A stretch of DNA of 63,607 nt, the filler included, from Octopus bimaculoides (taxonomy: Eukaryota), in the NCBI RefSeq assembly GCF_001194135.2. It is 7 parts of 5 records of this genome, joined end to end, with 100 filler letters (N's around TTAATTAATTAA, not from the genome) between each part and the next. Parts side by side here need not be neighbours in the genome. Positions count along the whole stretch, not along the records: positions 31,197 to 47,629 come from NC_068991.1; positions 47,730 to 49,826 come from NC_068988.1; positions 49,927 to 59,612 come from NC_068996.1; 4 more parts are not named here. One strand, given 5' to 3'. The translations under genes were made by a program, and so were the position numbers. The notes beneath the pieces are model-generated. The model did no database searches. It was not told the origin of the DNA and saw only the letters and a list, made by a program, of their open reading frames with translations. Below are positions 39,734 through 58,032 of this stretch, in pieces. Position 1 is the first letter of the stretch. The number at the start of each line of letters is the position of its first letter.

Positions 39734-39835
39734 ACTGTCAGGGTGATGTCTGTCTAAATGGCGGCACCATGGACCCTGAAACCTGTCAGTGCCACTGCAC
39801 AAATAACACTTTTACATCTGGACCACTTTGCGGCA
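39734..39835 (+). CDS. EGF-like exon: DCQGDVCLNGGTMDPETCQCHCTNNTFTSGPLCG
   Basis: Acceptor ttctattttgtag, donor gca|gtaagt; 102 nt, phase 1-1, no stops. Six Cys with the CLNGG and G..C EGF signatures. Confidence 0.88.
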
Positions 39836-39897
39836 GTAAGTATACTTCTATCTACATTGACAGTATTTAGTGGCAAACCTATACACACACACACATG

Positions 39898-41085
39898 AAC
39901 AAAGGTAAGTCAAAAATTATGCACACCTTTGTTTCTGTGGTTTATTAAAACAAACGCTGGGGTTGAGAGACTGCATCATTTTGCTTCTCGATATACTTCT
40001 TCCAGCAGTTCACAAGCTTGCTTATCCCATTGGAGAAGGTTTTTGGTTGGTCACGCAGCCATTCATGCACTGTTTCCTCTATTTTTTTGATCATGGCAAA
40101 TTGATGACCTTGTAAAGGATGTTTGAGTGGTAAAAAGAGGTGTATGTCAGAAGGGGTGAAATCAGGACTGCATGCAGGGTGTTCCAACAATTCAAAACTC
40201 AAATTTTCGAATAGTTTCGATGATGTGGGCAGCCATATATGGGCATACATTTTCGTGCAACAATAACATTTGATTTGACAATAGACTTTGGTGTTTGGTG
40301 TGAATTACTGGTTTCAGTTTCTTGGCCAGCATTTCTCTGTAGCCTAAACTGATGACTATAGACCCTTTTTCCAGGTAATGTTCCAGCATAGGCCCTTTTG
40401 AGTCACAAAATTCAGTTAGCATCTCTTTTCTTGTGGAAATTTGAGCCTTGAATTTCTTTTTCATTGGCGATTCTGAGTGTTTCCATTCCGTACTCTGCCA
40501 TTTGGAATTTGGCTCAAAGTGGTGGATCCAGGCCTCATTTCATGTGACTTTTCTCTCCTAAAAATCTTTGCCTTTATCATTGTTGCAGTCGAGTAAAGGT
40601 TGATAAATCTCCACATAATTGCACTTATGAACTTCAGTAAGCTCTCTTGACACCCATCTCACACAGACTTTACAGAAGCGAAGTGTATCATGGATGATTT
40701 TGTATCAGAACCATGATTAATTTGCAGTGAACATTTCACTTCATCAAAGGTTACTCATTGATTCATCAACCATCTTTTGAACTTGTTGAATCTTCAAGTC
40801 AGTAGTGGGGGTTGATGGACGTCCTGTCTAGTCATTCTTAAACTTCTCAATCTACTTATATACATTTCTATGTAATAGAGTACTCTCCCCATCTTAAACT
40901 AAAAGCTTGCGATGACTTTCAATGCCTGTTGTACCTTCAGACCAAAAAGATCTGATCACTGATCTCTGTTCTTCCTTACTGCACACCTCTAGCAGAGCAA
41001 CCATACTTTAACTATAACACAAGAAAGAAAACTGGAGTGATCAAGGTCAAACCTCGGTTATATAACCACCAGACTACCACTTTTT
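39898..41085 (-). mobile_element. Mariner transposon remnant (intronic)
   Basis: LLLHENVCPY (HDNARPH), LLEHPACSPDFTPSDIHLFLPLK (HPPYSPDLAPSD) and GISKLVNCWKKYIE motifs. Confidence 0.9.
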
Positions 41086-41256
41086 AGCACACGAGTGCTG
41101 AAGGCAGTGTGGCCAACCTAAAGAAGGTTTTGGCAAAAGTGTGGATAAGTTTTGACCTCTTTTTGTATATGTAATATATATTATATATATTATGAACATA
41201 CATACATACATACATACATACACACACATGTATGTGTGTGTATGTGTGCAAATCCC

Positions 41257-42640
41257 ATGATATTAAAATCATCATGGGAGACTTCAATGCAAAAGTTGGG
41301 CAGGGTAAAGACGGTGAAACTGTTGGATCATTTGGTCTGGGACAGAGGAATGAATGAGGTGAGAGGCTAGTTGGGTGGTGCAAGGAAAATGGTTTGATCA
41401 TAACAAGCACGTTTTTCAAACATCATCTGAGAAACCTGAACACCTGGAAAAGTCCTGGATATGGTTGCCGGAATCAGATTGAATTCATCTTGATCAATGA
41501 ACGCTTTCGAAATTCAGTGCAAAGGGTCAGGACGTATCCAGGAGCTGATTCTGATAATGATCATATATTGCTTAGCAGAAAAATCAGACTGAAATTAGAG
41601 AAAATCTATTGGAAGAAGACTGCACCTCAACTACAGTTAAAGCTGCTAATATTAGACAATGATATCAGGACAGGGTTTTGCCAAAACGTCATGGATCAGT
41701 ATGATGGAAGACCACAGTAGGAGAAGAAAGATGAATGGAAATTCCTGCAGAATGCACTGATAAAGGCAGCGGAGGAATGGCTTCTGGAAACTTAAAGAAT
41801 TTTGAAATATAAGTGGATGAATCAAGAGATACTTTATAGGATGGATGAGAGAAAACTGGCAAAGTATGACCCAGAGATGTACAGACAATTGAACAAAGAG
41901 ATTTGAAAGATGTGCGAAAAAGCAAAGGAAGAATATCTGGAGGGGTGTTGTGAAGAGATTGAAGAGCTGGAGAAGAAAGATGCACAGATGATGTATGAAA
42001 ACGTTAGACAGGCTACATTTAGGAGGGAGAAAAATCTGACAGGCTGAATTAAAGATGAAGATGGCACAATTCTGATGGATGATGAGTCAGTCAAGAGAAG
42101 GTGGACCGATTACATCAAAGTTCTCTACGCTGATGATGGAAGGAAAGAAAAAGCAGAGATAAGCAAGCCGATGGATGGCCATATGATTGCAGCAGCTGAA
42201 ATCAAGCAGGCTATGGACCAGATGAAAAGTGGAAAAGCGATGGGAAATGACAGCATCGCATTTGAACTAGTAAATGCTTTGCAGAGTTTTGAAGTAGAAA
42301 AATTAACAGAGATAGTGAACCATGTTTACAACTCGGGGGATGTTCCTGAAGAAATACTGGAATCAATTTTCATCGCCTTGCCTAAAAAGTTTGAAACAAT
42401 CAAGTGCAAAAATCACAGAATGATAAGCCTAATGAGTCATGTGACAAAGATTATTTTGAGAATAGAGTTGAATCAAGTGAAAGGTAGGTACTATTAGGGG
42501 AAACCTATCAGATGAACAGTTTGGTTATAGAACAGGAAAGTGGTTGAGAAATGCAATTCTATGTTTGAGGACGTTGATAGAAAAGTGTATAGAAAAACAA
42601 AAAAGACTTGTACATTTGTTTTATTGACCATGTGAAGGTG
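41257..42640 (+). mobile_element. RTE-clade LINE fragment (APE C-terminus to RT N-terminus)
   Basis: IIMGDFNAKVG...GERLVGWCKENGLIITSTFFKHH...TWKSPG...NQIEFILI...GADSDNDH; KSGKAMGNDSI...LPKK...NHRMISLMSHVTKIILR; EQFGYRTG...NAILCLRTL. Confidence 0.92.
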
Positions 42641-42813
42641 TCTGACTGCATATATATAGATATATATCCCTTACTTTCTATCTATTTGTCTATCTCCCTT
42701 GCTCTCTTTTTCCCTGTTTCTCCTCTATCCATCTCTTTTGTCAACACGTTCTAAGTATTACTACCCAATACATAAATATCCTCAAACAGTAATATCATTA
42801 TATTTTTTTATAG

Positions 42814-55608: not shown

Positions 55609-56600
55609 GTTAGTAATTTAAAACTTTTTTACATTTTATTTGTTTCTGTTCCTTTGTGTCTCAAGGAAAAAAAAATTGTAAATTCAACTCTGCTTTAGCA
55701 ATTGCTCTCATCATCATCATCACCACTACCACCACCACCACCACCACCACCACAGCCACCACCACCATCATCATCATCATCATCAATAATGTCGTTATCT
55801 TTAATTTCGACATCAATAAAGGTGATAGTTGCTTCATTTGCTAGAAATAACAACCAGATCACATCTTACCATCTCTAAAATGTCGTTGATAATGTAGCCC
55901 TTAATAAAATGTTTAAGACAAAAGAGATGGAATGGTCATGAGTGAAATGCCATCTGCAATCATTGATCTGCTGGATCAGGGCTTATCCTATATGTTAAAC
56001 AATTCTCCCATTTCCATCCCAATATCTGTGTACTTTGATCCAACCTTGAAATTGACATTCCTCAAATAGCATCATATCTCATTCTTCTCGTTTATTCAAC
56101 TGTAACTATTTTCTGTTTTCAAAGCTACATGCTATATTTCAGTTAAGTCTATGTCATCTTCAAACCATCCAACTTAACTATGTGGTTATAGCCATCCTCC
56201 CAGGTGTGTCCTTTCACATCTTTCACACAACTAAATAGGCACTTTCTTTCTAAGTGGTTTATAGTTCTTCACAAATATTTAGTCTTACAATCTCTGGCTT
56301 TATTATACTTTAAAAATTAGACTCAGCTTGCCCTTTGGGACCAGAAAATTTTGACCTTGCATCCCTTCTCTTATAATGATGAAAAGAAAATCTGTTGATT
56401 CAGCAGATATCATTGTCTCTTTATATTGATAGGTAGGGTGTGTGTTAGTATAAATACACACATATGCATTTATGTATGTTATTGTTTGTGAAGGACAGGA
56501 TATCAGTAGATTGCACTTGTTAGTGAATTTGGCTCCCCATTGGACAGGGAGCAGTCTTCAATTAAGACAAAAGAAAAGAAAAGAAAGCAACTATTGAACT

Positions 56601-56824
56601 TTAGCCCTTTAGCATTTAAACTAGCCATATCTGACCAAAATTTTCTACCTGTTTTATGTTCAAACTGACCGGATCTGGCCTCTCACACCTATCTAATAAT
56701 GTCGTAAAAATCACATTCACATCATTGAACTCACAAAGCTATGAGATAATACATAATTAATTCAAATCAATGTGAATAAGTAAGCATTACATTTGATTGA
56801 ATAATCTCAATGCTAAAGAGTTAA
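56601..56824. mobile_element. piggyBac-like MITE
   Basis: Ends ttagccctttagcatt / aatgctaaagagttaa: TTAA-type site plus inverted termini. Confidence 0.65.
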
Positions 56825-57059
56825 ATAAATTGAACTTTATTAAAATTCATTATAAATTAATTTTTAGAAAAAAATATAGTGGTTGATAGAATTTTAATCA
56901 ATTTTTCCTTTAGATTTAATAGATTCCTCCAAAATCTTGTTCTTCCACTTCTGGGTTGGAAAATATTTGTTTGTGTGGTTTGTATTTTGACGTTTGAGAA
57001 TTCACTTGTCATGTAGACTAGATTTGGAAACAGTGTAGAATAGATAACTTGATATTAGC

Positions 57060-57520
57060 ATAATCCATGATTCAGTTGGACAACTTGCCTGGACCGTTGC
57101 AGCTCTTCCATGCCAGATATCTCGCTCAAGTGATGCGGTATGAACATCTGGCTTGGGTTTCAGCTACATTGATATTTCACTAGCTGAAATATCTCATCTG
57201 TGCACTCCACAACTGTAGATGATAAATGTTTGCCAACTGAATTGGTCGATCTTGGTCATTGACAGTTTGTTGTATCTAGTGATATTCACCATTGATTCAA
57301 TAAGATTTATTTGCTGAAATGGTTCTTATCCACCATACTGCATACCATGAGTGGTTACATGCTATTTAACCTATGGCTGCAACCCTGACAGGTGATACCA
57401 CTCCAGGACAAAGTAGACCTGGGCATAGTAATAGTTAAGAGATAGTTTCACACTCCTCAGAACCCTGGAACTCCTGAACCAGAGGCCTAACTGCTGGATA
57501 CAGTTTAAATTCATACCAAA
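57060..57520 (-). mobile_element. Decayed RTE-like 5' region
   Basis: tgacaggtgataccactccaggacaaagtagacc...gaaccctggaactcctgaacc is homologous to 2290-2420. Confidence 0.45.
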
Positions 57521-57767
57521 ACATGACATGATATTATAGTCAAATAATTATTTATAAAGATTTTTTTGGTTTTATTCATGATTTCTTTTTATCTAGTAAT
57601 TATTTTTAATTAGCGGGTGTTAAACGATGATGATGATGAATGATCTCTTTTATATAATTATTTATAATAATCACAATATTCAGATATTCTCATGTTGTGT
57701 ATTTTGACTGATTCTTTTTTTATATAACTTATATATTTTACATTTTAAAAATTATTCTTATGAACAG

Positions 57768-58032
57768 CCTGAAGAAGATATTATTCAGACAGCAGATACA
57801 AGTACAGCTTCATCACCTCTCATAGACACTGAAAGAACACTAGGTCTTTTGCTTGGACTTCATGCTGGATACCAAGCCCACAGCACTAATCTTTCAGCTG
57901 AGGAAGAAGAATTTTCTCATTGGCTTCAATCCGAATTCTTTGCAGGAGGATTACAAATTTTGCAGCCACAAAATCCATTTGAAGAAGAGAAAGGAGAGAG
58001 CAAAACTTCAAGTTCATGTACAACTACACCTG
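57768..58032 (+). CDS. HERC2: HERC2 internal exon
   Basis: Acceptor tatgaacag, donor cctg|gttagt; phase 0-1. PEEDIIQTADTSTASSPLIDTERTLGLLLGLHAGYQAHSTNLSAEEEEFSHWLQSEFFAGGLQ matches HERC2 SSPLIDTERNLGLLLGLHASY...WLQSSIFSGGLQ (recalled). Confidence 0.93.

What the first reader, a model, noticed from the sequence alone, without database searches (positions are those of the whole stretch)
39734..58032. EGF-ShKT exons splice in frame into the HERC2 cytochrome-b5 exons: chimeric gene, nested gene or misjoin
Seen: exons 39734-39835, 42814-42930, 43806-43844 and 46707-46754 are all phase 1-1 with canonical GT-AG sites. The HERC2 exon at 53154 also begins in phase 1, so one stop-free ORF (EGF-ShKT-linker-cyt b5-like-HERC2 segment) can be assembled on the same strand. 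I found no HERC2 exon upstream in the window. Knowledge: HERC2 is a cytosolic giant ligase with no disulfide-rich extracellular modules; EGF+ShKT belongs to secreted proteins. Inference: the options are (a) an exon-shuffled chimera from a partial HERC2 duplicate, (b) a same-strand gene nested in a >53-kb HERC2 intron, or (c) unrelated contigs joined at the linker gaps 47630-47729 or 49827-49926. Phase-1 compatibility alone has roughly a one-in-three chance of arising randomly.
Basis: partly seen in the sequence, partly recalled or inferred. Interest (0 to 1): 0.72.

Follow-up and report, generated by a model that had tools for sequence, protein, structure and literature searches.

The report
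False chimera from window packing joints
The apparent fusion of a cysteine-rich protein gene with the HERC2 ubiquitin-ligase gene is an artefact of stitching unrelated genome pieces into one window: the two parts lie on different large scaffolds of an octopus genome, HERC2 is spliced from its own upstream exon, and the other exons end an already annotated, likely cell-surface CAP-domain protein.

Summary
The exons, splice sites and phases are real, but the chimera is not. Both 'linker gaps' are pack joints. The EGF/ShKT-like exons lie on G000 contig C11, the 2.1-kb middle piece on C8 and the HERC2 exons on C16.

HERC2 is ordinary. The cytochrome-b5-like exon gave one match in the genome. Thirteen upstream HERC2-like coding segments lie collinear on C16, with MIB-HERC2, CPH and HECT downstream. 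Spliced 14.6-kb contigs in 2 of 4 runs laid, from two studies, join the true upstream exon to window 53154 over a 7,825-nt GT-AG intron.

The EGF/ShKT-like exons are the 3' part of an annotated Octopus CAP-domain gene (LOC106883929). Its real last exon, also phase 1, lies 15.2 kb downstream on C11. That junction was not seen in reads here.

The only residual interest is that gene: 4-6 tandem CAP-EGF-like-ShKT-like modules with a likely GPI-type tail, not found in my literature searches.

The parts
38227..38291 (+).
   Evidence: AG/GT ends; with the next four exons and the C11 last exon it reproduces the last 149 aa of 4 of 4 O. bimaculoides proteins tested
39734..39835 (+). EGF-like exon of the terminal CAP module (C11)
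   Evidence: 100% match to aa 426-459 of XP_052827668.1; cysteine spacing shared with 3 paralogous modules
42814..42930 (+). ShKT-like six-cysteine exon of the terminal CAP module (C11)
   Evidence: Pfam ShK not detected in this exon
43806..43844 (+). Thr-rich stalk exon of the CAP gene (C11)
46707..46754 (+). Thr-rich stalk exon of the CAP gene; its phase-1 donor is followed in the annotated protein by the last exon at C11:28165120 (intron 15,163 nt), outside the window
47630..47729 (.). Pack joint; not part of the genome
   Evidence: 44N-TTAATTAATTAA-44N
47730..49826 (.). Unrelated stretch from contig C8 holding two decayed Tc1/mariner transposase pieces
   Evidence: C8:7943522-7945618, 100%; HTH_48, HTH_Tnp_Tc3_2 and DDE_3 hits
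49827..49926 (.). Pack joint; not part of the genome
53154..53336 (+). HERC2 exon, first part of the cytochrome-b5-like domain (C16:34556240-34556422), phase 1-1; spliced from the HERC2 exon ending at C16:34548414
55520..55608 (+). HERC2 exon, rest of the cytochrome-b5-like domain, phase 1-0
57768..58032 (+). HERC2 exon after the cytochrome-b5-like domain, phase 0-1
   Evidence: tblastn with P0064 E 7.5e-16

Best explanation
The window joins three unrelated genome stretches at artificial pack joints, so the in-frame link is a coincidence between two ordinary genes: internal exons of HERC2 on contig C16, spliced from HERC2's own upstream exon, and the 3' exons of a CAP-domain gene on contig C11 whose product is likely a secreted, membrane-tethered protein. 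HERC2 (shown): RLD1, cyt-b5-like, MIB-HERC2, CPH and HECT segments run in order over about 200 kb and give a 14.6-kb spliced transcript; its role as a cytosolic HECT ubiquitin ligase is established knowledge of the family. CAP gene (shown): one signal-peptide-like exon, at least four CAP + EGF-like + ShKT-like modules, a Thr-rich stalk and a hydrophobic C-terminal tail over 213.5 kb. Inferred, not tested: the modules form one transcript, the tail is a GPI-anchor signal, and the protein acts as a multivalent binding or adhesion molecule at the cell surface rather than as an enzyme.
For: Joints match the pack signature. 100% matches on three different contigs, whole stretches with 0 mismatches; C11 is 80.9 Mb and C16 57.5 Mb. 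The upstream HERC2 exon ends in phase 1 at a GTAAGT donor, and the joined HERC2 frame has 0 stops in 240 codons. Contigs of 14,620 nt (X2, study P2) and 14,660 nt (X5, study P3) join L046:1214 to 9040, GT..AG, skipping 7,825 nt, with 3,855 / 3,895 nt 5' of the exon and 10,582 nt 3'. One genomic match for the exon. The CAP gene's last exon lies at C11:28165120 with a stop and AATAAA signals downstream. The same C-terminus is annotated in O. bimaculoides, O. sinensis and O. vulgaris.
Against: No reads were laid across window 46754, so the CAP gene's last junction rests on the genome and on annotated proteins of three species. The two raw-read runs (X20, X21; about 6% of each read) had almost no depth on the HERC2 exons and showed no junction either way. 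The joint and loose-end tables were cut (89 and 1104 rows not shown), and contigs drop rare variants, so a rare chimeric RNA is not formally excluded. X2 and X5 are only guessed to be RNA by the index, though their GT-AG joints show splicing. The HERC2 intron holds 2,501 N and the CAP last intron 4,554 N, so unseen sequence lies in both.
Confidence: 0.99

Rival explanations
1. Exon-shuffled chimera: the CAP-EGF-ShKT gene captured a partial HERC2 duplicate.
For: The frame is open across the hypothetical join.
Against: The parts are on different contigs. The exon has one match in G000, 2 of 2 candidates scored. It lies inside a complete HERC2 and is spliced from HERC2's upstream exon. The CAP gene has its own last exon, conserved in three species.
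Confidence: 0.003
2. Same-strand CAP gene nested in a large HERC2 intron.
For: None beyond adjacency in the window.
Against: The intron before 53154 is 7,825 nt on C16; the CAP gene spans 213.5 kb on C11.
Confidence: 0.001
3. Rare trans-spliced or template-switch RNA joining the CAP gene's 46754 donor to HERC2's 53154 acceptor.
For: Phase compatibility only.
Against: The pairing was suggested only by an arbitrary pack order; nothing links the loci. The shown joints into this acceptor come from HERC2 alone.
Confidence: 0.003
4. Side question: the C11 locus is a tandem array of separate single-module CAP genes that annotation fused, not one multi-module gene.
For: O. bimaculoides models are short and disagree (382, 400, 553 aa). 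The 553-aa model skips from one module's start to the terminal module's second half. The locus has 29,065 N in 213,545 bases.
Against: tblastn with the O. vulgaris protein found one signal-peptide-like exon and one tail exon in 340 kb (diverged copies under 50% identity or inside gaps would be missed). O. sinensis has four multi-module isoforms of 1,326-1,345 aa.
Confidence: 0.25

Closest known systems
HERC2 E3 ubiquitin ligase (human cyt-b5-like domain, PDB 2KEO)
   Same: Cyt-b5-like exon matches 2KEO. RLD1-like repeats lie upstream, with MIB-HERC2, CPH (Cul7) and HECT downstream in order. The spliced contig is 14.6 kb. No HPGG motif in the cyt-b5-like part.
   Different: Nothing unusual found. 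ZZ, DOC and the later RLDs were not searched.
Octopus LOC106883929 / LOC115217114 (XP_014791245.1, XP_014791246.1, XP_052827668.1, XP_036363357.1, CAI9730330.1)
   Same: The window's exons plus the C11 last exon reproduce the last 149 aa of the O. bimaculoides proteins exactly: this is that gene.
   Different: The O. bimaculoides models cover only part of the locus. At least four complete modules map on C11, against 4 in the O. sinensis and 6 in the O. vulgaris model.
Molluscan CAP-ShK type II proteins (Cumia CreCAP-ShK 4-7; clade with Conus Mr30 and Tex31), PMC6409789, passages read
   Same: CAP domain followed by EGF-like and poorly recognisable ShKT-like cysteine motifs; the paper infers an ancestral molluscan origin.
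   Different: Those described are 295-452 aa with one CAP domain. The octopus gene repeats the whole CAP-EGF-ShKT unit 4-6 times and ends in a Thr-rich stalk and hydrophobic tail. No tree was built, so clade membership is untested.
Vertebrate and snake-venom CRISPs (pseudechetoxin 2DDA, natrin, triflin)
   Same: Best PDB matches to the CAP domain, E 1.5e-20 (21 distinct sequences matched); source of the automatic name 'cysteine-rich venom protein latisemin-like'.
   Different: No Pfam Crisp (PF08562) hit at E<=0.1. An EGF-like exon is inserted before the ShKT-like domain. The terminal module has Arg where pseudechetoxin has the His of GHYT. There is no evidence here of venom-gland expression.
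Multi-CAP-domain proteins (hookworm Na-ASP-1 with tandem domains; an algal protein with up to eight), PMC10189770, passages read
   Same: Concatenated CAP domains, which the review reads as stoichiometric rather than catalytic function.
   Different: The passages read do not mention EGF-like or ShKT-like domains in those repeats.

Membership tests
Chimeric or exon-shuffled gene | Donor and acceptor exons lie in cis on one locus | tested here: not met
   C11 versus C16, with a C8 piece between two pack joints
Chimeric or exon-shuffled gene | Transcript joins 46754 to 53154 | tested here: inconclusive
The 53154 acceptor is used by HERC2's own upstream exon in 2 of 4 runs; the other 2 had almost no coverage
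Chimeric or exon-shuffled gene | A second, partial HERC2 copy exists | tested here: not met
   1 match in G000 for the cyt-b5 exon; CPH only at this locus; assembly gaps could hide a copy
HERC2 | N-terminal RCC1-like domain before the cyt-b5-like domain | tested here: met
   RCC1-like repeat segments at C16:34529792-34538225 by tblastn with P0064, an unnamed HERC2-like representative; the RLD1 label is from recalled HERC2 architecture
HERC2 | Cytochrome-b5-like domain | tested here: met
   2KEO E 2.1e-8; PF00173 over cut-off
HERC2 | MIB-HERC2, CPH and C-terminal HECT in order on the same strand | tested here: met
   C16:34589419, 34626586-34629029, 34715546-34725882
HERC2 | ZZ, DOC, RLD2 and RLD3 domains | not tested
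   not searched
CAP superfamily | CAP domain PF00188 | tested here: met
   E 1.8e-20 in P0003; 6 domains in P0001 and 4 in P0002; its exons lie on C11 upstream of the window stretch
CAP superfamily | His/Glu tetrad (two His, two Glu; PMC10189770) | tested here: inconclusive
   First His kept in all modules; the GHYT His is Arg in the terminal module of all three species and kept in the others. Glu positions were not mapped; residue assignment is partly recalled
CRISP (strict: CAP + hinge + ICR) | Crisp/ICR domain PF08562 directly after CAP | tested here: not met
   no PF08562 hit in 4 of 4 proteins at E<=0.1; alignment to pseudechetoxin's C-terminal domain scores -1.9 bits
ShKT domain | Six-cysteine spacing ending C-x3-C-x2-C and ShK fold | tested here: inconclusive
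   Spacing present in every module. Pfam ShK only E 0.83 in 1 of 4 C11 modules. Profile search of PDB found no ShK protein. AlphaFold model pLDDT 52.8, not searched
EGF-like domain | Six-cysteine EGF pattern | tested here: inconclusive
   Cysteines invariant in 4 modules; EGF_2 E 0.022, under cut-off, in 1 of 4; no PDB hit
GPI-anchored protein | Signal peptide, small-residue omega site, spacer, hydrophobic C-terminus | tested here: inconclusive
   Hydrophobic N-terminus in the orthologues (Kyte-Doolittle 2.7) and hydrophobic tail (2.0) in all three species; no GPI predictor was available; the pattern is judged from recalled rules
Cephalopod venom protein | Enriched expression in posterior salivary gland or presence in venom | not testable with these tools
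   run tissues are not given

The most novel reading that the evidence does not exclude
The chimera is gone, but the C11 gene may be an unstudied octopus surface protein: one 213-kb gene encoding 4-6 tandem CAP-EGF-ShKT modules on a Thr-rich stalk with a GPI anchor, whose membrane-proximal module lacks a conserved CAP histidine in all three Octopus species. It would be a multivalent, tethered CAP-ShK protein rather than the soluble venom protein its automatic name implies.
Probability: 0.45. Interest if true: 0.35.

Novelty: not a real feature. Interest (0 to 1): 0.06.

Why it matters
A fusion of a secreted disulfide-rich module with a cytosolic ubiquitin ligase would have been striking, but it is a packing artefact: findings that cross 44N-TTAATTAATTAA-44N joints should be discounted. 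The useful by-product is a better map of an incompletely annotated octopus gene with at least four tandem CAP-EGF-like-ShKT-like modules. If it is one GPI-anchored protein, it extends the molluscan CAP-ShK family to a multivalent surface form and cautions against calling it a venom component from its name alone.

Tried and rejected
Word-based protein search with the HERC2 exon found nothing because only proteins up to 2,000 aa were searched; partial HERC2-like representatives were used instead. The run search listed no holder on record as RNA: no RNA holder listed, no evidence either way. Raw-read runs X20 and X21 gave no usable depth on the HERC2 exons. AlphaFold on the single 380-aa CAP protein failed (pLDDT 31.9) and on the four-module ShKT-like alignment was weak (52.8), so no fold search was run. 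Profile searches of PDB with the ShKT-like and EGF-like alignments gave one chance-level hit (E 0.48) and none. A search for relatives of P0003 at E<=1e-10 gave only itself, its isoform and a tardigrade CAP protein among 6,739 candidates (limited to 210-669 aa and shared words). Earlier findings near this place: none. Literature: 0 papers hold any of six locus or protein identifiers; 0 hold octopus + CRISP + GPI-anchored + CAP superfamily; some searches listed 1, 2 and 3 papers, of which I read passages of two and saw only listings of the rest. No supplements were read. An assembly misjoin in G000 was rejected: the joints are not in the genome.
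Full report
Observation. The four exons and the 53154 acceptor are as described: AG/GT ends and phase 1. The hypothetical join has no stop in 280 codons. The two 'linker gaps', however, are two of six pack joints in the window (9815, 31097, 47630, 49827, 59613, 61751).

Where the pieces lie. Window 46400-47000 matches G000 C11:28149602-28150202, window 53000-53500 matches C16:34556086-34556586, and window 47730-49826 matches C8:7943522-7945618, all at 100%. 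The whole stretches 31197-47629 and 49927-59612 match C11 and C16 with 0 mismatches, and each is bounded by assembly gaps on both sides. C11 is 80.9 Mb and C16 57.5 Mb long. The adjacency exists only in the window.

HERC2. The 53154 exon matches the human HERC2 cyt-b5-like domain (2KEO, E 2.1e-8, the single PDB hit) and Pfam Cyt-b5 over its cut-off. It has one match in G000. tblastn of a 1,541-aa HERC2-like representative against 200 kb of C16 gave 13 collinear coding segments upstream (34523909-34548404), including RCC1-like repeats, and further segments downstream. MIB-HERC2 (34589419), CPH (34626586-34629029) and HECT (34715546-34725882) follow on the same strand. The nearest upstream exon ends in phase 1 at C16:34548414 with a GTAAGT donor, and the joined HERC2 frame is open. 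Four runs were laid on this locus. In two of them, from two studies, spliced contigs of 14,620 and 14,660 nt join that exon to the 53154 exon over 7,825 nt, GT..AG, without mismatches; 3,855 and 3,895 nt lie 5' of the exon and 10,582 nt 3'. The two raw-read runs had almost no depth on these exons. The tables were cut and contigs drop rare variants, so this shows the normal junction, not the absence of all others.

The EGF/ShKT-like exons. A search with the ShKT-like exon returned 4 proteins, all Octopus and all with CAP domains. The cluster look-up names O. bimaculoides LOC106883929 and LOC115217114 in O. sinensis and O. vulgaris. The window's exons, a missed exon at 38227-38291 and a last exon at C11:28165120 reproduce the last 149 aa of 4 of 4 O. 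bimaculoides proteins exactly. That last exon begins in phase 1, lies 15,163 nt after the 46754 donor, ends in a stop and is followed by AATAAA signals. The orthologues end the same way. Because of these exact matches the organism is very likely O. bimaculoides (inference).

What that gene looks like. tblastn of the O. vulgaris protein over 340 kb of C11 (hits of 50% identity or more, best per place) found one signal-peptide-like exon (27951655), four modules with CAP, EGF-like and ShKT-like exons, the first exon of a possible fifth, Thr-rich linkers and one tail exon. The span is 213,545 bases, of which 29,065 are N. The O. sinensis model has 4 CAP domains and the O. vulgaris model 6. The ShKT-like exons of all four modules are phase 1-1, so a phase-1 donor is the rule in this gene. 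The terminal module has Arg at the place of the GHYT histidine in all three species, while the other modules keep it. The EGF and ShKT names rest on cysteine spacing: Pfam gives only sub-threshold hits in one module each, PDB profile searches found nothing relevant, and both structure predictions were too poor to use. The hydrophobic N- and C-termini and the Thr-rich stalk suggest a GPI-anchored surface protein; this is inference from recalled rules.

Comparison with what is known. Passages of PMC6409789 describe molluscan CAP-ShK type II proteins with EGF-like and poorly recognisable ShKT motifs, inferred to be ancestral in molluscs and functionally uncharacterised in the genomes cited. Passages of PMC10189770 note tandem and up to eight CAP domains in other organisms and read this as stoichiometric function. 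The octopus gene works like these but repeats the whole three-domain unit. It fails the strict CRISP test (no PF08562). I found no paper that names the locus or its proteins and none that holds the four terms; the library lacks most subscription journals.

Verdict. The proposed chimera, nested gene and assembly misjoin are all unnecessary: two ordinary, separately located genes were placed side by side by the window packing. Interest 0.06. The multi-module CAP gene is a modest side lead.

Noticed in passing
G000:C11:27951655-28165199 (L050-L060, L025-L036; window 31197-47629 is part of it): A 213-kb locus with one signal-peptide-like exon, at least four CAP-EGF-like-ShKT-like modules, Thr-rich linkers and a hydrophobic tail; current O. 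bimaculoides models cover only parts of it, and the 553-aa model skips from one module into another.
   Followed up: partly
G000:C11:28125396-28125540 (L032): The terminal CAP module has Arg where other modules have the GHYT histidine, in all three Octopus species.
   Followed up: partly
window 47973-48563 (-) and 48683-49583 (+): Two decayed Tc1/mariner transposase pieces on opposite strands: Mos1-type HTH_48 (E 7e-19), and HTH_Tnp_Tc3_2 (E 8e-12) plus DDE_3 (E 1e-12) split over two frames; the first 960 bases have at least 39 other copies at 88-91% identity.
   Followed up: partly
G000:C11:28156816-28158680 (L035), in the CAP gene's last intron: Long frames (507 and 113 codons) that read by eye like a LINE endonuclease/reverse transcriptase; label recalled, not scanned.
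   Followed up: no
window 52601-52677: A 21-bp tandem repeat, 3.7 copies at 96% identity, in the HERC2 intron.
   Followed up: no
G000:C16:38637583-38662762: Another locus on C16 with MIB-HERC2 and HECT hits on the + strand, about 4 Mb from HERC2; by recalled architecture possibly HECTD1.
   Followed up: no
G000:C1:7561856-7613049 and C21:33673045-33785340: Other clusters of CAP-domain hits, those on C1 covering the domain in one open frame.
   Followed up: no
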